64,000 bases of DNA from Sphyrna mokarran (taxonomy: Eukaryota): NCBI GenBank assembly GCA_024679065.1, contig JAGIQG010000005.1, positions 107,136,001 to 107,200,000 on the forward strand, written 5' to 3'. Of the stretch, positions 13,301 to 62,089 are shown piece by piece; position 1 is the stretch's first letter; every line of letters begins with the position of its first letter. The translations under genes and the position numbers were made by a program. The notes beneath the pieces were generated by a model. That model saw only the letters and a list, made by a program, of their open reading frames with translations, searched no databases and was not told the DNA's origin.

Positions 13301-13619
13301 GAAGCCCCCAACATTGGAATGAAAAGCCAAGTCTCAAGCCTGGACTTGCCAGCAGTGTAGCCTTCTCATTGGTCGCCTGTGAGTCTGCCAACCACTTAAA
13401 GATGACAGGTTGACTCCTGATATTTCAAGAGGGCTGGCAGCCCTAAAGACTCAGCAGCACCAGATAGGAAACCTTGGGAGCTGGGGCAGATCATTTTCAG
13501 GAAAAAAAGAAGAAAAGTCCATGAGGCCAACTGTCAGAAGGAAAATATCATCAGGGACAGACTACCTTCCATACCAGTACATCCTTTTTTGTGCCTTGGA
13601 GCTTCTGGACTCTGATGTC

Positions 13620-15699: not shown

Positions 15700-16560
15700 A
15701 TGGATATGAATTTGGCTAAGTGACAAAAAGAGAAAGTGGAGGTTGTCTTTCAGACTGCTGGAAACTACACAGTGATGTTCCACAAGGTTGAGACTAGGAC
15801 CTGGAGGGCTGAGGGGGAGAGCACAACTCCAGAGTTTGCAGATGACACAAGGCTTGGGAATTTTATGAACTGTGAGAAGGATAGTAATTGACTTCAGTTG
15901 ACTGGTGGAACAAACAGACACATGGCTGAAATTTAATGCAGTGAAATATGAAATGATACATTTTGGCAGGAAGAGTGAAGAGAGACAACATAAAACAAAG
16001 AGTGCAATTCTTAAGGGTGCCCAAGAGCAGAGAGACAAGGTGGTATAAGTGCACAAATTGTTGAAGTTGGTGCAGCAGGTTGAAGATGTTAATGAGGCAT
16101 CCAGGTTCCTGGGTTTAATAGATTGAGGCATAGTGTACAAAACATGGAGGTTATGATAAAACACTGGTTCACCCTCAACTGTAATGTAGTGTCCAGTTGT
16201 AGGCATCATGTTTGGGAAGATTGTCAAGGCTTTAGACAGATGTGGAAAAGATTTATGAGTATAGTTTCAAGGATTAAAAATTTTTGTTATATTGGAGAAA
16301 CTGGAGTTGTTGTTTTTAGCAAAGTGAAGGTTTAGAGGTGATTGGATAGGTGCATTTAAAATCCATGAAGGGGTACAGATAGATTAGATAAGGAAAGGTT
16401 GTTCCTGTTTGACAAAAGATTGAGAACCCAGATACACTGTTTGAAGATAATTTGGCAAAGGAATCAATGGCAATATAAGGAACCACTTTTTTTCATGCAG
16501 TGAGTGGTTCAGATCTAGAGTTCACTGTTTAAATTTGTGGCGGAGACAAATACAATCGTG
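15700..16560 (+). mobile_element. Degenerate CR1 LINE (RT and 3' end)
   Basis: GTTCCACAAGG (VPQG), TTTGCAGATGACACAAG (FADDT), TGGCTGAAATTTAATGCAGTGAAATATGAA; many stops. Confidence 0.75.
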
Positions 16561-22480: not shown

Positions 22481-22977
22481 TCTAGAAGGACAAGAACATC
22501 AGTACTGCAAATTCCCCTCCAAATCACACACCATCCAGACTTGAAATTATGTTGCTGTTCCTTTGCTGGGTCAAATTGCTAGATCTCCTTAACAGCATTG
22601 TGAGTGTACCTATACCACGTGGACTACAGAATTTTAGTAAGACAGTAGAACATCATCTTCTTAAGGGTTATTAGAGATGGGCAATAAATGTTAACCTAAT
22701 CAGTGATACTCACACTCTGTGTAAAAATAAATAAATGCAAAACCCCATTCAACTCCCTCACCCAGCATTGAACACCATTATTTGACCTGTTAGTCCCACC
22801 CACACCAGCTCCCTCCACCGTTCCTTCACCTTTTCAATCTTGCTTTCCTCTCCCCTGATGCCCAGTGATCAAACACTCATCCATTCGATCTCCCTCCTTT
22901 CTTAATGGATGCACTCCTACTCCATCCCCCTGGTCAAAGTTCCCCTCCTTCTAGTCTCATCACTTGACTTTCCATGT

Positions 22978-23252
22978 CAGCACAGTGGCACAGTTGTTAG
23001 CAGTGCTATCTCACAGCACCAGGGACTGGGTTCGATTCCCTGCTTGGGTCACTATTTGTGTGGACATTGCACATTCTCCCTGTGTCTTCGTAGATTTCCT
23101 CCCATGTTCCAAAGATGTGCATGTCAGGTTCATTGGCCACATTAGATTCTCCCTCAGCGTACCCAAACAGGTGTTGGAGTGTGGGGATTTTTGTAGTAAC
23201 ATCACAGTGTGAATGTAAGCCTACTTGTGACTAATAAATAAAACTTTAACTT
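22978..23252 (+). mobile_element. V-SINE with alternative 3' tail
   Basis: tRNA head and V core as above, but tail AATGTAAGCCTACTTGTGACTAATAAATAAAACTTTAACTTT; the same tail appears inverted at ~32097-32140. Confidence 0.75.
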
Positions 23253-32159: not shown

Positions 32160-32712
32160 GTTCCTGGTTTACCGAGTAAGGTGGTGGGAGCAGGCATGCA
32201 AGGGTTGTTTAAGGGTCTCTTGGACAGCCACATGAGCAGTCTGCAGATAGAGGGATATAGGAGGACTGTTTAAATACTTTAATTGTTTCCACAGGCTGTT
32301 CGGTCCACCTTGTTGACCAACAAGGTGCATGCATTCGACAGGTCGTGCGAGGGCTGCTCCTGGATGTTACTTCAGGAGTAGCCTAGTGCTTCACGTCGTT
32401 AGTGTATGCTTAAACTGGACCATCAGATGGGCAACATGACAGCTCAGACACTATCGCTGTTGCTGTGCAGACACATGGATTTGGGCCTGTGTCTGCGGGA
32501 GTTTGCGTGTTCTCCCCATGGTTACGTGGGTTTTCTCCGGGTGCTCCGGTTTCCTCCCACATCCCAAAAGTGTGCTCTTAGGCTGATTGGGTAACAAATT
32601 GTCCCTATATTGGTCTCTATATGTCATTAAGACGTTAGGACGGCGGCACGGGCTCGTTGGGCCGAAGGGCCTGTTTCCCGTGCTGTGTTGTTCTTTGTTC
32701 TTTGTTCTTTGT
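32160..32712 (+). mobile_element. CR1 3' end with long 3' UTR containing a V-SINE-like core
   Basis: ORF2 end LPSKVVGAGMQGLFKGLLDSHMSSLQIEGYRRTV*, then unique UTR, TGTGTCTGCGGGAGTTTGCGTGTTCTCCCC core, (TTCTTTG)3 tail; nested inside a minus-strand SINE tail. Confidence 0.75.
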
Positions 32713-37154: not shown

Positions 37155-40020
37155 GAACATAGAACATAGAACATAGAACATTACAGCACAGAACAGGCCC
37201 TTCGGCCTTCGATGTTGCACCGACCAATATAAAAAGCAATGCCCCTCCAAACTAAACCATTCCCTTCTCTTCCATATACTTATCAACTAACCTCTTAAAC
37301 GCCACCAAACTTGGCGCATCTACAACTGCTGCAGGCAGGGCATTCCACTCCCGAACCACCCTTTGGGTAAAGAACCTACCTCTGATATCCGTCCTATAAC
37401 TATCACCCCTTAATCTAAAGCTGTGTCCCCNNNNNNNNNNNNNNNNNNNNNNNNNNNNNNNNNNNNNNNNNNNNNNNNNNNNNNNNNNNNNNNNNNNNNN
37501 NNNNNNNNNNNNNNNNNNNNNNNNNNNNNNCGTGCTAGCTTTTTCCATCCTAGGAAAAAGGCTATCACTGTCCACCCTATCTAAACCTCTAATCATCTTA
37601 TATGTTTCGATCAGGTCCCCTCTTAGCCTCCTCCTTTCTAACGAAAACAACCTCAATCCCTCAGCCTCTCCTCATAAGACCTGCCCTTCATACCAGGCAA
37701 CATCCTGGTAAACCTCCTCTGTACCCTCTCCAATGCCTCCACATCTTTCTTATAATGCGGGACCAGAACTGCACACAATACTCCAAGTGCGGCCGCACTA
37801 GAGTTTTGTACAGTTGCAACATGACGTTGCGGCTCCGAAATTCAATCCCCCTACAATAAAAGCTAAGACTCCGTATGCCTTCTTAACAACCTTATCGACT
37901 TGATTGCCTACTTTCAGGGATCTATGCACATATACACCAAGATCCCTCTGTTCATCAACACTATTAAGAGTCCTACCATTAGCCCTATACTCTACACATT
38001 TGTTATTCCTGCCAAAGTGAATTACCTCACACTTTTTCACATTAAACTCCATTTGCCACCTCTCGGCCCAGCTCTGCAACTTGTCCAAGTCACTCTGTAA
38101 ACTAAAACACCCCTCTTCACTATCTACCACACCACCAACTTTAGTATCATCTGCAAATTTACTGATCCATCCCTCAATACCCTCATCCAGATCATTTATA
38201 AAAATTACAAACAGCAGGGGCCCCAAAACAGAACCCTGAGGCACACCACTTGTCACCGAACTCCACGATGAATATCTCCCATCAACCACCACCCTCTGTC
38301 TTCTATCTGCTAGCCAATTCCTAACCCAATTAGCTAATCACCCTCTATCCCATACATCTGCATTTTCTGCAGAAGTCTTCCATGGGCCACCTTATCAAAC
38401 GCCTTACTAAAGTCCATATGTACCACATCAACTGCCTTACCCCCATCCACCTCTTTGGTCACTTTTTCAAAAAACTCAATGAGGTTAGTAAGGCACGACC
38501 TACCTTCACAAAACCATGCTGACTATCCCCAATCAATTCATTTCTCTCTAAATAGCTATAAATCCTATCCCTAATAATTCTCTCCAATACTTTGCCCACA
38601 ACAGAAGTAAGACTCACTGGCCTATAATTCCCTGGAAGGTCTCTCTTCCCCTTCTTGAACAACGGGACCACATTCGCTATCCTCCAGTCCTCCGGAACCA
38701 CACCCGTAACCAATGACGACCTGAAGATCAGAGCCAGAGGCTCTGCAATCTCCTCTCTTGCCTCCCAGAGAATCCTAGGGTAAATCCTGTCCGGCCCAGG
38801 GGACTTATCCAACTTCAAACCCTCGAGAATATCTAGCACATCCTCCCTATCTACTTCGATACTTTCCAGTTTGCCACCCTGTACCTCAGTGTTCTCCATA
38901 ACTACATTTACATCACCCTGCGTGAATACTGAAGAGAAGTATTTATTCAGTGCCTCTCCAATCTCTTCAGGCTCCACGCACAACTTCCCACTGCTGTCTA
39001 TGACTGGCCCTAATCTTGCCCTAACCAATCTTCTATTCTTAACATATCTAAAGAAAGCTTTAGGATTCTCCTTAACCCTATCAGCCAAAGTCTTCTCGTG
39101 TCCCCTCTTAGCTCTCCTCAACTCACTCTTTAGCTCCCTCCTGGCTAATCTATAGCTATCCATTGCACTAACTGAGCCTTCAAGCCTCATCCTGACATAA
39201 GCCTCCTTTTTCCTTTTAACCAGCAAATCAACTTTTTTCGTACACCAAGGTTCTCTTACTCGACCATTTCCTCCTTGCCTGACAGGGACATACTTATCAA
39301 GGAGCAGCAGCTGCTCCTTGAATAAGCTCCACATTCCAGATGTTCCCAGTCCCTGTAGTTTCCTAGTCCAATCTATGCACCCTAATTCTCTCCTGATGGC
39401 CTCATAATTACCCTTCCCCCAGCTATAACTACTGCCCCCAGCTTCATGCCTATCCCTATCCATCACTAAGGTGAATGTAACTGAATTGTGGTCACTATCA
39501 CCAAAATGTTCACTAACTTCCAAGCCTAACACCTGGTCTGGCTCATTGCCCAGCACCAAATCCAATGTAGCCTCACCTCTAGATGGCCTATCTACATACT
39601 GAGTCAAAAAACCTTCCTGCACACTTTGTACGAAAACTGACCCCTCTAACGAGCTAGAGCTATAGCTATTCCAATCAATATTAGTAAAGTTAAAGTCCCC
39701 CATAACAATTACCCTATTACTTTCACTCCTGACCAGAATTGACTTGGCAATCCTTTCCTCAACCTCTCTAGAACTTTTAGGAGGTCTATAAAAGACTCCC
39801 AACAGGGTGACCTCTCCTTTCCTGTTTCTAATCTCAGCCCATACTACCTCAACAGACAAGTCCTCATCAAACTTCTTTTCTGTCACTGTGATACACTCTT
39901 TGACTAATAATGACACTCCTCCCCCCCTTCTACCTCCTTCTCCACTCTGACTAAAGCATTTGAAACCCGGAACCTGCAACATCCATTCTTGTCCTTGCTC
40001 TACCCAAGTCTCTGAAATGG
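37155..40020 (-). mobile_element. Young CR1 LINE, ORF2 (APE endonuclease + RT), 5'-truncated, frameshifted
   Basis: ORF 38459-39982 with GVFYRPP, MGDFN, SDH, KSPGPD, NYRPVSLTS; ORF 37798-38292 with GVPQGSVLGP and FADD; (GAACATA)n tail; truncated at AISETW. Confidence 0.95.
37431..37530. other. Assembly gap (100 N)
   Basis: N run; flanks are contiguous in the sister copy except for one base. Confidence 1.
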
Positions 40021-40353
40021 CCCAGCTAAATTTACCCCAGCTAATCCCGTGACACTGAGGGGCAATTTAGCATGGCCAATTCACCTAATCCACACATCTT
40101 TGGACTGTGGGAGGAAACCAGAACAGCAGTTTTAATTTACTAAGGAGCAAGTTGTTTGAACTTTAGGCAGTGTCTTCCAGTGGTGGAGGCGGCTGACCAT
40201 TGGGCGCCAGCAGAATCTTTCATCTTGCCATTGTCAATGGCATTTGCAAGGCCCATCTTGTCGTTGGGAAAGCAGCCACACAGAAATGCCTTTGGCAGGA
40301 TCGAAAGATCCAGCTGGTGGGAAAACAACTCAAGCAAAATTAAGCTGTGTGTG

Positions 40354-44539: not shown

Positions 44540-45409
44540 GTGGAGATGCTGGCATTGGACACACATAGTTTACAGAATACTGATTTGAATGCGAGTCTTT
44601 ACAGCTAATCTGGTTAAACAGACCATTGTTCACAGCAAACTACCCAGCCTTCAGGAGAACAGTGACCACAACACCACACAACCCTGCTCCAGCAACCTTT
44701 GTAAGATATGCTGGAATATTGATACGGATGACATCATCTCACATGAGAACACCATCCACTAGGTACACGGCACATACTCTTGCAACTCGGCCAAAGTTGT
44801 CTACCTGATACGCTGCAGGAAAGGATGTCCCTACTCATGGTACATCCTGAGTACCATGCGGCCGCTACGACAATGGATGAATGAACAGCGCTCGACAATC
44901 ACCAGGCAGACTGTTCTCTTCCTGTTGGCGAATACTTCAGTGGGTCACGGGCATTCGGCCTCTGCTCTTCGGGTAAGCATTCTACGAGGCGGCCTTCAAA
45001 ACACACAACAGTGCAGAGTCGCTGAGCAGAGACTGATAGCCAAGTTCTGCACACATGAGGACGGCCTCAACCAGAATCTTTGGTTCATGTCACATTATTT
45101 GTAACCCCCATGACTTGCCTGAAATTGCAACATTTCACTTACTGTCCTGTTTGGAGACAATACACATCTATTTAACGTATGTTTAATGCTATCTCCATTC
45201 ACAATGTCTGCACCTTTAAGACTTGAATAGCAGGTTAGCTGTAAAGACTCACATTCTAATCAGTATTTTGTAAACTGTGAGTGCCTCTACATGCCCTTCT
45301 CTGATCAGAACTTTCCACACACCTGATGAAGGAACAGTGTTTCTGAAAGCTTGTGGGTTTCCTATCAAATAAATTGGTTGGACTTTAACCTGGTGTTGTG
45401 AGACTTTTA
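44540..45409 (+). mobile_element. Penelope-like element, truncated: GIY-YIG endonuclease, pLTR, inverted 5' segment, 12-bp TSD
   Basis: YSCNSAKVVYLIRCRKGCPYSWYI (GIY-YIG) ..AEQRLIAKFCTHEDGLN; TSD CAGAACATTGAG at 44528-44539 and 45410-45421; 44561-44612 is an inverted copy of 45231-45282. Confidence 0.85.
45320..45355 (+). ncRNA. Minimal type I hammerhead ribozyme in PLE pLTR
   Basis: CAC-CUGAUGA-AGGAAC(AGU)GUUUCU-GAAA-GCUU-GUG: intact core, stem I CAC/GUG, palindromic AGCU stem III, as described for Penelope hammerheads. Confidence 0.65.
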
Positions 45410-49129: not shown

Positions 49130-50252
49130 GAGAAGGTGAGGGGGCATGGGATCCAAGGGACTTTGGCCTCGTGGATCCAAAACTAGCTTGCCGGCAGAAG
49201 GCAGAGAGTGGTTGTGGATGGGTCTTTTTCTGCATGGAGGTCGGTCACCAGTGAAGTGCCCCAGGGATCTGTTCTGGGACCCCTGCTGTTTATCATTTTC
49301 ATAAATGACCTGGATGAGGAAGTGGAGGGATGGGTTAGTAAGTTCGCCGACGATACAAAGGTCGGTGGTGTTGTGGATGGTCTGGAGGGATGTCAAAAGT
49401 TGCAGCGGGACATAGACAGGATGCAAGACTGGGCGGAGAAGTGGCAGATGGACTTCAACGCGGATAAATGTGTAGTGGTCCATTTTGGCAGAAATAATGG
49501 GATGAAGGAGTACAATATAAGGGGTAGGAGTCTTAGCTGTGTTGAAGAGCAGAAGGATCTTGGGGTCCGGGTCCATAGGACTCTTAAATCGGCCTCGCAG
49601 GTGGAGGATGTGGTCAAGAAGGCGTATGGTGTACTGACCTTCATTAATCGAGGGATTGAGTTTAGGAGTCGGGAGGTAATGATGCAGCTTTATAAGACCC
49701 TTGTCAGACCCCACTTGGAGTACTGTGCACAGTTCTGGTCACCTCACTATAGGAAGGATGTGGAAGCTATTGAAAGAGTGCAGAGGAGATTTACAAGGAT
49801 GTTGCCTGGATTGGGAGGCAGGCCTTATGAAGATAGGTTGAGGGAACTAGGTCTCTTCTTCCTGGAGAGACGAAGGTTGAGAGGCAATCTGATAGAGGTT
49901 TATAAAATGTTGAGAGGAATAGATAGGGTGGATTCTCAGAGGCTATTTCCCCGAGCTGAAATGGTTGCTATGAGAGGACACAGATTTAAGGTGCAGGGAA
50001 GCAAATACAGAGGGGATGTTAGGGGTAAGTTTTTCACTCAGAAGGTGGTGAGTGAATGGAATTGGCTGACATCGAAGGTGGTAGAGGCGAACTCGCTGGG
50101 GTCTTTTAAAAGATTTTTGGATGAGTATATGGGAACTAATGGGATGGGGAGTTACAGATAGGTCTGTGGCTTGGTAGGGATAGACGTGATCGGCGCAACT
50201 CATGGGCCAAAGGGCCTGTTTGTGCTGTAGTGTTCTATGTTCTATGTTCTAT
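49130..50252 (+). mobile_element. CR1 LINE, 5'-truncated, open RT C-terminal half
   Basis: ORF 49208-50161 (317 aa): VPQGSVLGP, FADD, LEYCAQFWSP; (TTCTATG)3 tail. Confidence 0.95.
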
Positions 50253-50734: not shown

Positions 50735-50898
50735 CACTCACATTACACACTGACACACACGCATAGTCACTCTCACACACTCTCACACATTCTCACTCAC
50801 ACATTCATTCTCACTCTCTCTCTCTCGCTCACACACACACACACTCTCACTCTCACACACTCTCATTCGCATACACACTCTTTCTCACACACACACAT

Positions 50899-50934
<36 letters not shown>

Positions 50935-51183
50935 TCTCACTCTCACACACTCTCATTTGCATACACACTCTTTCTCACAACACACACATTCTCACTCTCT
51001 CTCATTCGCTCACACACACACACTCTCCACAACTCTCATTTGCATACACACTCTTCTCACACACACACACACACTCTCACTCTCACACACTCTCATTTGC
51101 ATACACACTCTTTCTCAACACACACACACACTCTCACTCTCACACATCTCATTCGCATACACACTCTTCTCACACACCACACA
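50735..51183. repeat. CA/CT compound microsatellite / minisatellite
   Basis: Repeated CACACACTCTCACTCTCACACACTCTCATT(C/T)GCATACACACTC units abutting a gap. Confidence 0.9.
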
Positions 51184-51401
51184 NNNNNNNNNNNNNNNNN
51201 NNNNNNNNNNNNNNNNNNNNNNNNNNNNNNNNNNNNNNNNNNNNNNNNNNNNNNNNNNNNNNNNNNNNNNNNNNNNNNNNNNNNNNNNNNNNNNNNNNNN
51301 NNNNNNNNNNNNNNNNNNNNNNNNNNNNNNNNNNNNNNNNNNNNNNNNNNNNNNNNNNNNNNNNNNNNNNNNNNNNNNNNNNNNNNNNNNNNNNNNNNNN
51401 N
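51184..51401. other. Assembly gap
   Basis: N run. Confidence 1.
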
Positions 51402-52966: not shown

Positions 52967-53225
52967 AGGCAGCACAGTGGTTAGCACTGCTGTCTCACAG
53001 CGCCAGGGATCAGGGTTCAATTCTAGCCTCGGATGACTGACTGTGTGGAGTTTGCATGTTTTCACCATTTCCTTCAGTTTTCTCCCAAAGATATGCAGTT
53101 TAGGTTGATTGGCCATGTTGAATCATCCCTTGGTATCAGGGAGATTAGAGAATAAATATGGGGGTAGGGCCTGGATGCAATTGTTGATGGGGCACGTAGA
53201 CTCCTTCTGTAATGTAGATTCTATG
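52967..53225 (+). mobile_element. V-SINE (HE1-like)
   Basis: GGCAGCACAGTGGTTAGCACTGCTG head, V core, TTCTATG tail. Confidence 0.8.
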
Positions 53226-53369
53226 AAGGGATGGTGAGGCAGATGGAAGGGGAAATTAACTAAAGGGCCATTCCTGAACACAATTTGAAGGGTTGACCTG
53301 TTCTACCTTTAGGATGCAGGCATGAATAGAAAGCACAATAGGAGAAAATGGTGGAGAGTGAGGTGTGTA

Positions 53370-53590
53370 GAAATTCTTCTCCCAGAGGATGGTGAATTTC
53401 TGAAATTCTCTGCCCCAAATGTAGAATATTTAAAGTGGAAGTGGATAAATTTTTGATAGATCAAGGAATAGAAGGCTATGGGCAAATGGCATAGAAAAGC
53501 AATTAAGCTTAGTATAGATCAGTCATTATAGTATTGAATGGCAGGGCAGGCTTGAATAGCCTGGTGGTCTGCTCCTGCTTCTATTAATTG
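53370..53590 (+). mobile_element. CR1 3' end fragment
   Basis: TTCTTCTCCCAGAGGATGGTGAAT..GATCAGTCAT..ATTGAATGGCAG. Confidence 0.65.
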
Positions 53591-54499
53591 TGTTGTTGTG
53601 TGCACGATCAGACATGTATCCTCACAGGAGAGTGAATTCCTTCATAGTAATCTTAGTTAATGAAGGAAATAAGATACCAGAAAGATCACATGTGTGATAG
53701 TGTAGAATATGGATTCTCATATAATTCAGGATAGATATGGCAGATATGATTGCAATCTGAACCCTGAACTGAGGTAGGATGTAGACACTTCAGAGCATGT
53801 GCAAAGCTGAGTAACTGCAGTGATCTCTGAGTTAATTCCAAAATAGAAAATCTTGAACTATTGTTCCATCGAATAGAGAAAATAGAGCTGGTATGGTGCA
53901 AATATTTGATGTAAGGAGACAGAGAATTGATAATGAATTATTCATTGGCCATAATATGTAGAAACTAATCGAGTTGTCCTTGTGGAGTTCTGCAAAAGAT
54001 TAGAATAAACACCACAGCAGTTATGTGCATTAATCACCCTTGTGAATATGCAATATATCTTTAATTCATGCAATTATGTCCCTGCAATACAATTCCAGCA
54101 CATTCATGACAACATGCTTTCAAAGCCAGACAATTTATTCTGGCAGTATGCATTTTTAATAAATACACTACCAACAGATCATTCCTGACACACTTTCATG
54201 TTGCAGGAAGGGAGAATGTGGGTTCAAGTGATGGAGCAATGATGCAACTGGCCACAGAGAGGATATAGAAAGAGGCTTATAAGAAAAATGCACTGAAGCT
54301 GTTAAAATGTCCAAGACGTGCTCACATTGATTACTGGAAAATAAAGAAACATTTCATTAGTTTCCTCACTCAATGCCGTTATCAACCTAAATAGATGCTG
54401 TGCATCTGAATTAGAATTATTGCTGCCCTATATTTGGGTAAATACCAGTGTAATCTGGAGAACATCGAAAGCAAAAAGATTGCCATTAATGCCATTTAT

Positions 54500-54603
54500 G
54501 ATCTCATGGATATCCAAAGCTATTTATAGCCAAGGAAACAATTACAACATATACTCAATGTAGAAAATGTGACAGCAAAATTGCACAGAGCAAGGCTGTA
54601 CAA
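54500..54603 (-). mobile_element. Deu-type SINE, left half (right half 55888-56010)
   Basis: TCCAAAGCTATTTATAGCCAA..AATGTAGAAAATGTGACAGCAAAATTGCACAGAGCAAG..ACAA continues after the insert as ATAGCAA..TTGGCTGAGAGAT..ATTGGCCAG..GGGGACAACT..CTTCTTCAAAT..CACTTGAGAGG, matching a recalled shark SINE consensus in reverse. Confidence 0.6.
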
Positions 54604-55887
54604 GTTGTCATAAGGCTCATAAGGGCAGGAGTAACTATGACTCTCTTATTCTTCGGTGGGTGAATGGGAGAGTCATGGTTACAATAGCTGTGCGAATCTT
54701 GTCGCTTCTGTAGCACAATGAGCTGCGCCTCCTTGACAGTCCCGCCGGGCAACATTGCTGCTACTCCACCGCGGTGATGACTAAAGCAGCTGTCCAAGGA
54801 GCGATGCAGATGTTGTTGTATGTCTGGCTGTCCGCAGTCAGACTGCAATTACAAACAAGTGCTTGGGATTGGCTAGTATCCATTCGTGCATAAAGGCTCG
54901 TTTGTTAGCTGATCCCAGTAACTGTGCGATTCTTCTGGTTTCTAGCACACAGTGAGTCAATCCCTTCCGCGGGAGCCACCTGGTATCGTCTCCGTGGGCA
55001 CAGGAGATGGTATTCCATGACTGACCGAGAAGCTAATAGCAGGGGCGACTCATGCTAAGACCACGACCACTACCACCAGACTGCCAGCCAGGAGTGGTAT
55101 CATTGGAATGGTCTCTGGTATGTTTCGCATAGCTGTGGTATTCTTGGCGTTCTAGACCACGGTGAGTCAATCCTGACAGAGGTCCCGCAGGGTATTCAGG
55201 CCTTCAAGCTGGCAGGTGAATGGTCCTGAAGGGAATTTGACTGGCCGAGAACAGCCAGCATGCTTCTATACCTATAAACCCGGTTAATTGTGAAAGAAAA
55301 AAATTTTTGTCTTGACAGGTTTCGGCTTGACCCGGGGATAGTTGGTGATTTGCTGACGGATGCGGTCACGCCTATCTAGGGAGTAGAAAGCACCTCTGCG
55401 ACCTCCTGCCCACACGATCGGCACAGAGGAAAAGACACATAGATCTGAACTTGGTGTGACGCAGAGAAGGGATGCCCAGGGGCTGGGCGTGGTTGACAGC
55501 GATGGGCGCAGCTCCCGGCGTTGTGCGAGCGATTCTCATGCCACGGTCGCGTTTTCAGCAATGTAGTTTGTTCATTGCGCGGGCGTGTCTCCTAATAAAT
55601 AAAGGCTCATTTTTGCCTCAAATGATGATTTATGGGTAAACGGCTCGAGGCTGACGAGCAAAAACTAACCTGCACGTCAGGTGCTCCCAAAGGTGTGATT
55701 CAATCTGCTTGTCTGCAATTATGGTAGTTGTTGCCGCATCTTTCTGATCATTTCCCCGTTTCCACCTATGCCCTACGGCTGTGTAACATCAGGTGGATGT
55801 CACTCTGATTCCATTCAGAAGTGCACAATGCACGTCAACGAGCGACAATAAAAGTCAGATAAGACACCCTCACGAGTGTCTCTTAAA
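54604..55887 (+). ncRNA. Putative array of structured ncRNA units (~210-235 nt period), foreign composition
   Basis: Three clear repeats at 54685, 54919 and 55130 plus degenerate ones at ~55339 and ~55564; conserved predicted fold with compensatory changes; stem mismatches largely G-U on + strand; CpG-rich; no credible ORF. Confidence 0.6.
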
Positions 55888-56165
55888 ATAGCAAGGTTGG
55901 CTGAGAGATGCACATTGGCCAGATTACTGGGGACAACTACTGTCTGCTTCTTCAAATCGTGAGAAGAAAATTTGTCTACACACTTGAGAGGCTAGGCCGG
56001 GGTTTGGATGGAATCCTCATTTTCATGTCTCTTTAACTTCATTGGTGTCATGGCCCAATTGCATTCAGCCATAATTGGTTGCAAATCAGTAGAATGCTGC
56101 AAAGATGGCAGAAATGTTGGCATCAGGAGCCAAATGACTGCTCAATGTGAGCATGGACTCATCTG

Positions 56166-56594
56166 GAGGGGCATACACGTGATGGGTCGTGAGAGGACTG
56201 CTCTTGGACCTTTTTCGAGAGTATTCTACTGCTTCACATCGTTAGTGTATGCTTGACCTGGACCATCTGATGGGCAACACGACAGCGCAGTGACTACAGC
56301 TGTGCTGTGCAGATACATGGATTTGGGCCTGTGTCTGTGGGAGTTTGCGCATTCTCCCCGTGCTTGCGTGGGTTTTCTCCAGGAGCTCTGGTTTCCTCTC
56401 ACATCCCAAAGATGCGCTCTTAGGCTAATTGGCAAAACAAATTCTCACTAAATTGTCTCAAATTTGGTTTTTAATACATAGATCTATAAACATGGACAGG
56501 GATCGCGTGTAGAAGTGGGAACATCGAGGTGGCGGTGCAGGCTCATTGGGCCGAAGGGCCTGTTTCCCGTGCTGTTTTGTTCTTTGTTCTTTGT
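56166..56594 (+). mobile_element. 3' UTR-only copy of the CR1 subfamily with V-SINE core
   Basis: Closely similar to 61100-61525 and 32325-32712; TTCTTTG tail. Confidence 0.8.
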
Positions 56595-59339
56595 ATCCAA
56601 GAAAGCACATCATCTCGATAATCTGCAACACCAACCCATTCATGCTTGAGATGGACTCCTTCATTATCTGCAATCTTGGTGAATCTGTAAGGTTGCTGGG
56701 TAGGATTGAAAGACGTGTCAATGCTTCACCCATTCCTAGCTGCTGCTGTCCTGCTTAAATTGCCTTCAAAGTACATCATCTGTGTCCATTTGAGTAGAGT
56801 TTGGAGAAGTCAGCACCCTCTGAAGCATATTTTCCACTGATGTCCCTGACTCCAACATCTTCTCTTACTCATCTACTGAGTGCAAATCATGAGACAAAAA
56901 CTCAACTTTCTATCTGTGTGGTCTGACTGAAAGATGAGTCTCTGAACCAATGCATGGAGTATATCAATCTGTGACAGTAGAGTCTCCAAAGAACTCAGCT
57001 TCACTGAGGAAGCATCATCTGTGACTTCCAGATCTCCTTCTGTATGTGTGAAGGCTCTGTCAGACATAAGATATGGACAAGTCTTGAAATAATAAGAGTT
57101 ACAAGTTGTCATTCTGAAGATGATTGTGGTTCACTTATTGTTGAAATTAAGATGAAAAAAAAACAGGGCTATGATTTTACTAAAAAATCATTCATGGGCA
57201 TTGCTGGCTGTCCAGCATTTATTGCCCATCCCCAGCTGCCCAAGGACAGTTGAGAATCAACCATATTGCTGTGACTCTGAGTCACATGAGTGACAGCAAT
57301 GGCATGCATTCAACAAATGGATGGAGTTCATTTTGTGGTGATTAATCAGGCCATGCTTTCAATCCCAGCACAGCCCTCTGTTAATATAGAAACCAATACC
57401 TCTTGGCAAAACCTTTCAGGGATTTGAGGATCTGGTTTGCCATTTAAGTGCTTTGATGGACATTGTACAGGTGAGATTTTAATTAACACAACATACTGGT
57501 GTTCGAAACCAGTATGCAGCAAAATTGTGATTTGGTTTTCTCTTTAATATTAGATTTTACTATGCCAGCAATGAAAACACTTAATTTTTGGGCTAAATGT
57601 ATATTTTTTTCAATCCAAGATGAGTAATTTCAGATTAGCCATTCCATGATTTTTCCTGGTACCAATGTAGTTCTAGATTATGACAAGGATTTTATTGCCC
57701 CTGCTGCCCAGTGGGATATTACAGAATTGCTGAAGTAAAGACCAATTTAAATGACCCAGAGCATATGTGGGTGGGGATGTGCAAACAGTGACAAGGTTGT
57801 AATATTCTGCCCTGTATGATCCAAATGGTGAGATGCAATTGGGCCATGTCTCTTTCTCTCTATCTGTCCTTTCTATTACTTGCTTTCAACTAAAAGGCTG
57901 CAAACTTTTATTGAAAAATTTGGTTACAAGATTTGAATCATAAAGATCAGGTGTATATCTGTCTCTATAATCCACGTGGTCATGTAGTGCTCACAGGTTA
58001 TATAGTATGATATTGCTTCAATGATTTACTTTTTGTAAGCATCTATTCACTAATTAATCCTTAATATATTAGCTAGGTAAATCTTCTCATTGAACTGTTT
58101 TTCACCCTTTTTCTGTTCCAATGAAAGCAATTCATTACAAATAGTGACACTGCAACTGGCTATTCAGGAATCTCAAGGGGCCAATGTCAAATTGACTGTT
58201 CATTCCATTGCATGAAGATTATGTACTTCCTGAGGGAATTATAGATCTTGACCTCCAACTATAATACAGCCTGCAGGCGTCCCAAAGATCAATTTATTAT
58301 TTGCTTTAGAATTTACTTTCACAATCTTTTATTTGTGTTCCAGCCAAGCTGTGAAATATAAGTTGTCGCCAGCTGTGAAAGATCTGGCACTCAATTAAGT
58401 CAATCACTTTGCCATTGATGGATCAATATAAGCAATATTTTTTACATTATCTTTCAGGGATAATGAGGGTGGGGGATGGGGGTATATGGTGGAGGTGAAT
58501 GAAATTGCGCTGCTTGAACTTACTCCTGATAGGAAATACATCTGACTCCATTGTGATAAAAGAGTTGGTGCCCTTATCTTTAACATTCACTGGCAGCACA
58601 TAGAGCATGATTCCAATCAACATGCAACAGGCTTGATATTGGCTCTGCCATTTTGGAGCTCCTTGCTCCAATCTATATTCTTGCCTTAACCAACTAAAGC
58701 AGAAGAAACATTCAACAGCAGATAGGACTCCATTACCAGCACTACTTAAAGCCTGCACTTTCCATCCGTGAGAATGGCAGCGCAGGTTCAAGAGCCAGTA
58801 TAACCCAAAATTGTTGGCAAGGTTGTGATTTCTGATTTTGGCAACCCCTTATTGGAGATGTGATCAGGTTCACATCCAGAATGGGTGAAAAGATGATTTT
58901 CACTCATTTCAATAGATTTGAATTTAACTAAAGAACCCCCCTCCCCACCCCTTCCCTCCCTCACCAGGTCATCCAGTATTTTCAACTTCACCAATGTAAA
59001 GTTTTTAAAGAGTGCTCCAATCTAAGTGGAGCCAGTTCCCGAGTCTAAGAGACCCCACTTCACGTGACTGATGGTGTAAACTCAGCCCATTCTCTTTTTT
59101 GGCAGTTAAAGGAATGAGATCTGAAGAGAAAGCTTGGCCAGTGGAGCTAAAGAATCCACACCAGTTCTCTCACCAAAACCGATACTCTGCCAAATTCTTG
59201 AAAGATCCTGCCCTATTGAACACTCAGACAATAGTATACAGCGAGTATTTTGACTGATGTAGAAGTTTGTTTTTGTTGACTTAAAAGCTTGTACACAAAG
59301 CAATTGAGGAGAACATGTTAATTGTGCGCCAATTTACAA

Positions 59340-60914: not shown

Positions 60915-61525
60915 CTCTGGGGTTATTTAAGAGATACTTAGATGGGCACATGAACAGAATGGGAATGGAGGAGTATAGAAAATTGATTTAAAATAGGGAT
61001 CATGAGCCTTGGGAGTCCCTGGGAAGTGTGTAAATAGATGATGATATTGATGTACTTGTTTTTATCCTACAGGTGCTTTGGTCCGCCTTGTTGTCTAACA
61101 AGGGGCATACACACGATGGGTCATGAGACGTTGCTCTTGGATTTTTCGAGAGTATCCTAGTGCTTCACGTTGTTACTGTACGCTTTACCTGGACTATTTG
61201 ATGGGCAACACGACAGCTCAGTGACTATCGCTGTGCTTTGCAGATACATGGATTTGGGTCTGTGTCTGTGGGAGTTTGCACGTTCTCCCCGTGCTTGCGT
61301 GAGTTTTCTCCGGGTGCTCCTGTTTTCTCCCACATCCCAAAGATGTGCTCTTAGGCTAATTGGCAAAACAAATTCTCACTAAATTGCCTTAAATTTGTTT
61401 TTTAATCCATAGATCTATAAACATAGGCAGGGATCATGGGTAGAGTTGGGAACATCGGGGTGGCGGCTCGGGCTCGTTGGGCCGAAGGGCCTGTTTCCCG
61501 TGCTGTTTTGTTCTTTGTTCTTTGT
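60915..61525 (+). mobile_element. CR1 3' end with long UTR and V-SINE core
   Basis: ORF2 end LGLFKRYLDGHMNRMGMEEYRKLI*, then UTR as in 32160-32712. Confidence 0.8.
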
Positions 61526-62089
61526 ATATTATTCCCAATAACTTCATTTAATATTTACTAGCCTGTTTCCTGCTCCCAATCTATGGGTTTGAAATGGATG
61601 TCCTTCCCAGATCTTGTGTTCTTTCCATAGCTAATGGATTGATTCCAAGAATGATCAATAATGCCTTACTCTCCTGCTTCCTCCTGTTGCCGCCTTCTTT
61701 GTGTGAGTTATGCTACGCATTCTGCCTAAAATTTTAAAAGCAAATTATAGGGGATGATGGAATCTGAAACAGAAACAAGAAAACGGCAGAAAACCTCAGC
61801 AAACCTGACAGCATTTGTGAGAGAGAACGGAGCCAAAGTTTCAAATCTGGATCACTCTGATGAGTCATGGTTTTGAGTCCGATGGTAGTTTGCTTTTAAT
61901 ATGGTTCCTTTCACGTCAAAAGGACCCTGATTATCATTTTTGGAAAATACTGAGTGGAGAGTGCATGATGTTCTTTCTGCACAGCTTCAACTAACTATCC
62001 AGCAGAAATACAGCAGAAGGAGCTGTTTTGAGGCTGAAAGGAAACAGCAGTGTTACTCTTAGCGATCCAATAAGATCATATCCCAAGTG

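What the first reader, a model, noticed from the sequence alone, without database searches (positions are those of the whole stretch)
54631..55336. Long G-U-rich hairpins precede every unit and set the strand as +
Seen: 54631-54651/54662-54682 is a 21-bp stem whose only three non-Watson-Crick pairs are U-G. 54863-78/54903-18 is a 16-bp stem with several G-U pairs. 55045-55128 is an interrupted hairpin (CATGCTA/TGGTATG, AGACCA/TGGTCT, TACCAC/GTGGTA). 55279-55336 has CCCGGTTAA/TTGACCCGGG. Each ends 0-2 nt before the TAG/TAA of the next repeat. On the minus strand the G-U pairs would be A-C mismatches, which favours a + strand RNA over a DNA cruciform. The stems may mark processing sites (RNase III-like) between units.
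Basis: partly seen in the sequence, partly recalled or inferred. Interest (0 to 1): 0.7.

Follow-up and report, generated by a model that had tools for sequence, protein, structure and literature searches.

The report
Retroposed RNA with tandem pseudoknot modules
A roughly 1-kb piece of RNA, apparently copied back into this vertebrate-type genome, carries three diverged repeats of a knotted RNA fold that matched no catalogued RNA family; the hairpins look like spacers between the repeats rather than cutting signals.

Summary
The stems are at the stated places and the + strand call holds: 11 G-U and 0 A-C among 72 pairs; z -5.1 on + against -1.5 on -. Only H1 and H2 are clearly beyond chance, H3 is marginal, H4 is not. 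There are three homologous units, not four. The hairpins share no sequence, length or loop, so the RNase III reading is unsupported. The conserved thing is the 115-125-nt unit: a pseudoknot whose helices are kept by compensatory changes, with two invariant mirror pyrimidine tracts facing one purine tract, as a short triple helix would need. A 9-bp direct repeat, the right copy directly after an A-rich tail, brackets the block (54621-55601) like a retroposition target-site duplication, which independently makes + the RNA strand. Unit 1 alone also fits a relaxed HDV-like ribozyme descriptor. No Rfam family, bacterial or phage relative was found; vertebrate and viral collections could not be searched. 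Best reading: a retroposed RNA with tandem triplex-pseudoknot stability modules insulated by hairpins. Function is inferred, not shown.

The parts
54612..54620 (+). left copy of a 9-bp direct repeat, candidate target-site duplication
   Evidence: a 9-mer repeat between two 60-nt windows about 980 nt apart occurs in 18 of 1616 control positions
54621..55601 (+). candidate retroposed insert, 981 nt, GC 0.52, CpG o/e 0.73, single copy in the window
   Evidence: fold z -4.4 (+) and -1.45 (-); flanks z -0.11 and -0.25 on +
54631..54682 (+). H1, 21-bp spacer hairpin (3 U-G); its loop 54655-60 can serve as P1 5' strand of the unit-1 HDV-like fold
54685..54805 (+). unit 1: S1 54687-94/54712-19; tract b 54697-700; tract c 54706-09; purine tract 54797-800; inner stem 54721-25/54787-91
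54721..54791 (+). HDV-like core inside unit 1 only: P2 54721-26/54786-91, P3 54727-29/54738-40 (one C-A mismatch), L3 54730-37, P1' 54741-46, GG, 9-bp P4 54753-61/54771-79, C54781 in J4/2
   Evidence: descriptor relaxed after seeing the sequence; 7 of 1000 shuffles match
54822..54843 (+). extra 9-bp tetraloop hairpin between unit 1 and H2, no counterpart after units 2 and 3
54863..54918 (+). H2, 16-bp spacer hairpin (5 G-U)
54919..55035 (+). unit 2: S1 54921-28/54946-53; b 54931-34; c 54940-43; purine tract 55028-31; inner stem 54955-59/55018-22
55045..55128 (+). H3, interrupted spacer hairpin (marginal, z -2.5)
55130..55255 (+). unit 3: S1 55132-39/55156-63; b 55142-45; c 55150-53; purine tract 55248-51; inner stem 55165-70/55237-42
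55279..55336 (+). H4, weak 9-bp stem, not above chance
55339..55592 (+). CpG-rich 3' quarter; not a detectable fourth unit; predicted hairpins have z near 0
55593..55601 (+). A-rich tail (two overlapping AATAAA, at 55594 and 55598, running into the direct repeat)
55602..55610 (+). right copy of the 9-bp direct repeat

Best explanation
54621-55601 is a DNA copy of a + strand non-coding RNA inserted by target-primed reverse transcription (inferred from tail plus direct repeat); the source is most likely the 3' part of a retroelement RNA or of another A-tailed RNA. It holds three diverged tandem copies of one module. In each, an 8-pair stem S1 encloses two pyrimidine tracts; tract c and the bases before it pair with a purine tract at the unit's 3' end (S2, 8-9 bp), making an H-type pseudoknot that carries a branched inner domain in its long loop (shown by compensatory changes among the copies). 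Tract b is placed to lie in the major groove of S2 and give up to four U.A-U / C.G-C triples, as in the telomerase pseudoknot and ENE elements (inferred). Each module thereby clamps its own 5' and 3' ends and most likely protects the RNA against exonucleases (inferred). The hairpins are unrelated spacers that tie up the sequence just 5' of each module so that the weak S1 strand is free to fold (inferred).
For: Unbiased helix scan of the 3-unit alignment ranks S1, the inner stem and the two tract/purine helices among the top five. Named structure: 59 of 65 cells paired (90.8%), 6 of 22 pairs with double-sided changes, 2 of 500 shuffles as high, slid controls 34-44% paired. Each unit's c strand pairs best with its own purine tract (-13.3, -8.6, -11.0 kcal/mol; best of 6 partners in 3 of 3 rows). 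Tracts b and c are invariant in 8 of 8 columns against 2 of 9 other loop columns (Fisher p 0.002) and are mirror images on the S1 axis in 3 of 3 units. A generic clamp descriptor matches 10 of 1000 shuffles once and none twice. Direct repeat plus tail at the edges of the GC/CpG block; left flank CpG o/e 0.16-0.22 against 0.73 inside; both flanks unstructured. ENE triplexes protect RNA, also in a retrotransposon 3' UTR (PMC6633196, PMC12501189; passages read).
Against: Only three related sequences; the structure was derived from them, so the shuffle count is not a probability, and S1 alone reached 126 of 500. The three descriptor hits are homologues, not independent, the descriptor was written after seeing the units, it also hit 11 other places in the window, and the purine tracts it picked first in units 2 and 3 were not the homologous ones. 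Four triples and a full 8-9-bp S2 cannot coexist: the top pairs must open or only 2-3 triples form (geometric inference). Tract b can also pair Watson-Crick with the purine tract at similar energy (-10.5, -8.7, -12.4), so a two-state switch is possible. Unit 1 has G in the third purine position, and nested folding gives the S1 pair tested in unit 1 probability 0.0 and a competing rod 0.97-1.0. The purine tracts are internal, whereas the MALAT1 tract is the 3' terminus. CpG o/e stays 0.61-0.65 for 200-400 nt beyond the right repeat and the GC change point is only located to 55515-55783. No second genomic copy, empty site, transcript or assay was available.
Confidence: 0.4

Rival explanations
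1. The RNA is a ribozyme-headed non-autonomous retroposon (SIDE/NARTc-like): unit 1 is, or descends from, an HDV-like self-cleaving ribozyme that cuts the element out of a host co-transcript near its 5' end, with H1 and S1 lying in a long J1/2; units 2 and 3 are duplicates that lost the catalytic core but kept the scaffold.
For: A relaxed descriptor needing P1 finds 1 locus on + (unit 1) and 1 AU-rich locus on - in 64 kb; 7 of 1000 shuffles. A second possible P1 strand (54624-30, 6 of 7 pairs) begins 3 nt inside the left boundary. The C-G pairs of the P3-like stem (5 of 6 cells) and the GG after P1' are kept across the units. R2 ribozymes tolerate 6-bp P1, a P3 mismatch and J1/2 up to 700 nt (PMC3774820, sections 16 and 18 read); SIDEs are ribozyme plus 3' end with target duplications (PMC3414825, abstract).
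Against: Descriptor was relaxed after inspection and had no positive control; a stricter one found nothing in 54550-55650. No Rfam HDV-type hit at E<=10. P3 has a C-A mismatch; the 5'-end P1 has a central A-C mismatch; the better P1 strand lies in the loop of H1, 34 nt inside the insert. Unit 2 fits only partly, and unit 3 lacks the L3 pyrimidines and the J4/2 cytosine. A rod that sequesters L3 dominates once the RNA passes 54803.
Confidence: 0.2
2. The insert is the retro-copied 3' UTR of an RNA virus of fishes, and the modules are tandem exoribonuclease-resistant or replication elements separated by stem-loops, as in flavivirid 3' UTRs.
For: Architecture of diverged tandem pseudoknots with unrelated hairpins between them; little CpG depletion; each unit holds a three-way junction. 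Tandem xrRNAs occur in tamanavirus 3' UTRs (PMC10770923, passages).
Against: No Rfam viral family at gathering or E<=10. Units are about 120 nt against 48 nt for class 1b. A loop-to-downstream pseudoknot was seen only in unit 3. No viral ORF beside it: Pfam on six frames of 53591-54684 and deeper searches of one frame gave nothing meaningful, though that stretch is flank if the direct repeat is real.
Confidence: 0.17
3. The whole module is a new self-cleaving ribozyme that cuts at the invariant UA just 5' of S1, releasing 208-234-nt monomers (unit plus next hairpin).
For: Order of strands equals the HDV order without P3; first S1 pair is purine-U in 3 of 3; UA before it, UUCU in the loop and GAG after S1 are invariant.
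Against: No P3 can form between the tracts and S1 in all three; no conserved C-N-R-A in register; the invariant pyrimidines are already explained by S2. No assay.
Confidence: 0.1
4. One reading: the stems are RNase III-family (Drosha/Dicer) sites that cut a polycistronic RNA into units.
For: H1 is a near-perfect 21-bp stem; H3 approaches pri-miRNA size; stems abut the units.
Against: No shared sequence, length or loop; H4 not significant; the only miRNA-family scores are far below cut-off (24 of 80 and 11 of 50 bits).
Confidence: 0.07
5. Host promoter, enhancer or decayed tandem duplication; the stems are chance or DNA-level.
For: CpG-island-like 3' quarter extending into the right flank; units on their own have nested-fold z near 0.
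Against: Double-sided changes and self-specific pairing and the G-U/A-C asymmetry are not expected from DNA-level decay.
Confidence: 0.06

Closest known systems
ENE triple helices (MALAT1/MEN-beta, KSHV PAN, Evade retrotransposon ENE)
   Same: Two opposed pyrimidine tracts stacked on a stem, with a cis purine tract that includes a G for a C.G-C triple; present in retroelement 3' UTRs (PMC6633196, PMC12501189, passages).
   Different: At most 4 triples; no upper duplex; purine tract is internal and separated by a branched domain; three tandem copies; no tRNA-like element follows (ARAGORN 0 genes; no Rfam hit).
Vertebrate telomerase RNA P2b/P3 pseudoknot
   Same: H-type pseudoknot with a U-rich first loop positioned on the U-A pairs of the second stem next to the junction (recalled, from no call).
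   Different: No Rfam telomerase hit; repeated three times; long loop closed by its own stem.
HDV-like ribozymes of non-LTR retrotransposons (R2, SIDE, L1Tc/NARTc)
   Same: Unit 1 can be drawn with P1, P2, P3, L3, P1.1, P4 and a J4/2 cytosine near the 5' end of an insert flanked by a direct repeat.
   Different: Mismatch in P3, ambiguous P1, not kept in units 2 and 3, embedded in a larger pseudoknot.
Flavivirid tandem xrRNAs
   Same: Diverged tandem pseudoknotted units separated by hairpins in a 3' region.
   Different: Larger, different strand order, no Rfam match, no viral ORF found.

Membership tests
ENE triple helix | U-rich tracts opposed on a stem | tested here: met
   U/U, C/C, U/U, U/U on the S1 axis in 3 of 3 units
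ENE triple helix | duplex-triplex-duplex (closed internal loop with upper stem) | tested here: not met
   apex is a 4-5-nt loop, at most one pair
ENE triple helix | A-rich target is poly(A) or the processed 3' terminus | tested here: inconclusive
   target is internal in the DNA; RNA ends unknown
ENE triple helix | triplex forms and stabilises RNA | not testable with these tools
   needs melting, probing, decay assay
HDV-like ribozyme | P2, P4 and nested order | tested here: met
   unit 1 only: P2 6 bp, P4 9 bp
HDV-like ribozyme | 3-bp P3 with 7-8-nt L3 and P1.1 | tested here: inconclusive
   unit 1: L3 and P1.1 fit, P3 has 2 of 3 pairs; unit 2 partial; unit 3 fails
HDV-like ribozyme | P1 of at least 6 bp starting with G | tested here: inconclusive
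   two candidates, 6 bp in the H1 loop or 6 of 7 at the 5' end; minimum of 6 bp from PMC8495972 passages
HDV-like ribozyme | catalytic C in J4/2 in every copy | tested here: not met
   present in unit 1 (C54781), doubtful in unit 2, absent in unit 3
HDV-like ribozyme | self-cleavage | not testable with these tools
   needs in vitro assay
Flavivirid xrRNA (class 1) | Rfam model match | tested here: not met
Flavivirid xrRNA (class 1) | three-way junction with loop-to-downstream pseudoknot in each copy | tested here: not met
   6-bp candidate seen only in unit 3
Flavivirid xrRNA (class 1) | lies in a viral 3' UTR; blocks Xrn1 | not testable with these tools
   viral collections closed; no assay
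pri-miRNA / RNase III substrate | about 35-bp stem with unpaired flanks in each spacer | tested here: not met
   21, 16, about 26-29 interrupted and 9 pairs; size rule recalled
Non-LTR retroposed insert | target-site duplication and 3' A-rich tail | tested here: met
   9-bp repeat, tail directly before the right copy
Non-LTR retroposed insert | empty site or further copies elsewhere | not testable with these tools
   single copy in 64 kb; no vertebrate genomes on hand
tRNA-derived SINE / Pol III gene cluster | cloverleaf head, or T-run terminator after each unit | tested here: not met
   ARAGORN 0; first T4 run after 54500 is at 55304

The most novel reading that the evidence does not exclude
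An undescribed mobile or viral RNA of cartilaginous fishes is built from a new RNA fold, a triplex-clamped pseudoknot that houses an HDV-like catalytic core in its first copy and has been repeated as a non-catalytic or differently catalytic module; it would link HDV-like ribozymes and ENE-type stability elements in one evolving unit and define a new class of self-processing, self-protecting RNA.
Probability: 0.15. Interest if true: 0.88.

Novelty: new variant of a known kind. Interest (0 to 1): 0.62.

Why it matters
The module matched none of 4227 Rfam families and shows compensatory changes among three copies inside one locus, so it was under selection as RNA. If it is a triplex stability element it adds a compact, internally targeted, tandem form to the few known natural RNA triple helices and a possible tool for protecting uncapped or untailed RNA. 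If unit 1 cleaves, it points to ribozyme-headed retroposons in a vertebrate genome. The insert also marks a source element or virus that remains to be found. Every claim is cheap to test on a 1-kb transcript.

Tried and rejected
Rfam: 0 at gathering on 64 kb; 3, 9, 1, 1 and 0 sub-threshold matches on the region and the four sub-regions, none near cut-off. ARAGORN 0. blastn of 54600-55640: no match in phages, 2 chance matches at E about 1 in plasmids. Two exact degenerate-pattern scans of GTDB genomes: 0 and 0; insensitive to diverged relatives. Host gene: Pfam on all 353 stop-free frames of at least 55 codons found reverse transcriptase/endonuclease debris and three weak sub-cut-off hits; the Arb2-like hit at 16096 was inspected and read as decayed LINE sequence (my recognition). 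Exons under 55 codons were not examined. Upstream decayed ORF: Pfam on 12 read-through frames, one sub-cut-off hit; for one of six frames PDB 0, 1 hit at E 2e-4 with 13 repeated stretches, judged low-complexity and not followed, 0 of 144 candidates; that frame has no language-model look-alike result. Stop-codon read-through signals: the TAG/TAA are not in one frame (spacings 234, 211, 209). A match of the 3' end to 13349-13390 is chance (25 of 60 shuffles as good). Solo LTR: one TG..CA with 5-bp repeat at 54481/56101, not fitting the composition boundaries. Resemblances to tRNA heads, 5S rRNA boxes, the hepacivirus 3' tail, twister, pistol and hairpin ribozymes came from memory, had no Rfam support and were dropped. 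Ten paper searches turned up no description of this motif; five short strings from the units hit two papers whose titles are unrelated (listing only). The library lacks most subscription papers, and supplements were not read; tables of predicted ENEs or HDV-like ribozymes there could contain relatives. Viral and metagenome collections, vertebrate genomes and repeat libraries stayed unchecked.

Full report
Setting. The window is vertebrate-type genomic DNA: GC about 40%, CpG o/e 0.26, LINE reverse transcriptase debris and dispersed repeats covering 19% by self-comparison. The SINEs and LINE ends look like those of cartilaginous fishes; that is my recall, from no call. No host exon was found by Pfam among 353 stop-free frames of at least 55 codons. 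The region 53187-56166 is single-copy in the window.

Observation. H1 is the strongest inverted repeat of the window in a strand-neutral scan. z-scores on +/- are -8.4/-6.95, -4.1/-1.0, -2.5/-1.5 and +0.3/+0.4, so H4 is not above chance. The 72 counted pairs include 11 G-U and no A-C; the unbiased version is 7:0 against 50:44 in 25 other stems (p 0.018). The region folds at z -5.1 on + and -1.5 on -. Raw energy differences between strands are not evidence by themselves, as several G/T-rich windows nearby show differences as large.

Units. Three segments (54685, 54919, 55130) are homologous (0 of 2000 shuffles for heads, 0 of 300 for whole units); 45 of 114 ungapped columns are invariant. A covariance model built from them finds only these three above noise in 64 kb, and not the segment after H4. 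The hairpins are unrelated to each other.

Fold of the unit. An unbiased scan of the alignment for shared helices returns S1 (8 pairs), an inner stem (5 pairs, 3 with double-sided changes, no mismatch), and two pyrimidine tracts, b and c, that both match one purine tract at the unit's end. With S1, c/purine, the inner stem and a 3-pair hairpin named, 59 of 65 cells pair, 6 of 22 pairs change on both sides, 2 of 500 shuffles reach this and slid controls give 34-44%. S1 alone is weaker evidence (126 of 500). The c strand extends to 8-9 bp and each unit prefers its own partner. S1 and S2 cross, giving an H-type pseudoknot with the inner domain in the long loop. Tracts b and c are invariant (8 of 8 columns against 2 of 9) and are exact mirrors on the S1 axis, which is the code of a parallel pyrimidine triple helix. 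Limits: three related sequences only; a full S2 and four triples exclude each other; b can instead pair Watson-Crick at similar energy; the descriptor is post hoc and hits 11 other, mostly AT-rich places; nested folding does not populate S1 in unit 1.

Boundaries. A 9-bp direct repeat lies at 54612-20 and 55602-10; the right copy follows an A-rich tail directly. It is the longest of four repeats of 8 bp or more between the flanks searched; such a repeat arises in 18 of 1616 control positions. CpG o/e is 0.16-0.22 to the left and 0.73 inside, and both flanks fold no better than shuffles. Against: CpG stays at 0.61-0.65 for 200-400 nt to the right. A SINE at about 22977-23243 ends in the same 12 nt, which may mean shared mobilising machinery or only a common tail type; the 3' ends printed for four other SINE copies did not show it. 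I put retroposition at about 0.65. If right, it fixes + as the RNA strand independently of folding.

HDV-like core. A strict descriptor found nothing in 54550-55650; a relaxed one finds unit 1 as the only + strand locus with P1 in the window (7 of 1000 shuffles). The G-CAA before a 9-bp P4 resembles the genomic HDV ribozyme (recalled). P3 has one mismatch, P1 has two candidates, one starting 3 nt inside the left boundary, units 2 and 3 do not keep L3 and J4/2, and a competing rod dominates after 54803. R2 ribozymes allow such deviations and long J1/2 loops (PMC3774820: passages and sections 16, 18). It is a lead, not a membership.

Mechanism. Shown: + strand structure, three homologous modules, covarying helices, unrelated spacers. 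Inferred: retroposition, triplex, protection from exonucleases, insulation by the hairpins. The insulation idea rests on position only; local folding shows that S1 and b strands can mispair with upstream sequence. RNase III processing gets no support from conserved features.

Comparison and novelty. No Rfam family, no tRNA, no phage, plasmid or GTDB relative. It works most like an ENE or telomerase-type triplex pseudoknot, but fails ENE membership on the upper duplex and HDV-like membership on units 2 and 3. Papers seen: PMC6633196, PMC12501189, PMC8495972, PMC6765202, PMC10770923 (passages); PMC3774820 (passages and two sections); PMC3414825 (abstract); all others as search listings only; no supplements. 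Ten searches found no description of the motif, within a library that lacks most subscription papers.

Verdict. Real feature, strand call right, processing-site idea unsupported, and the more interesting object is the repeated pseudoknot inside a probable retroposed insert. New variant of a known kind; interest 0.62; most novel reading 0.15 likely, worth 0.88.

Noticed in passing
window 55611-56010: CpG-rich sequence (o/e 0.61-0.65) continues right of the direct repeat, with several TGACG/CACGTC words; may be a promoter-like patch or a second insert. Folds no better than shuffles.
   Followed up: partly
window 55017-55158: The 3' end of unit 2 can pair with the head of unit 3 across H3, extending H3 into a long rod; a possible alternative state, weaker than own-unit pairing.
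   Followed up: partly
window 54729-54740 with 54789-54801: Unit 1 alone has a rod of about 12 pairs that would hide its L3 and its purine tract; could act as an off-state once transcription passes 54803.
   Followed up: partly
window 54624-54629 and 55038-55043: A similar GCAGG word precedes H1 and H3; none precedes H2 or H4.
   Followed up: partly
window 54184-54204: Branch-point-like CTGAC followed by a weak pyrimidine tract and CAG; could be a 3' splice site upstream of the insert (read by eye).
   Followed up: no
window 22977-23243: tRNA-headed SINE whose last 12 nt equal the insert's tail.
   Followed up: partly
window 38462-40066 (-) and 49187-50158 (+): Long open LINE frames: endonuclease plus start of RT (535 aa), and RT C-terminal part (324 aa); relatively young copies.
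   Followed up: no
window 44560-45110: Looks like a Penelope-type GIY-YIG endonuclease fragment (my recognition; no Pfam hit).
   Followed up: no
window 56167-56596, 61101-61527, about 32323-32705: Three copies of a 430-nt dispersed repeat, 74-89% identical.
   Followed up: no
window 50745-51183: CA/CT microsatellite block running into an assembly gap at 51184-51401.
   Followed up: no
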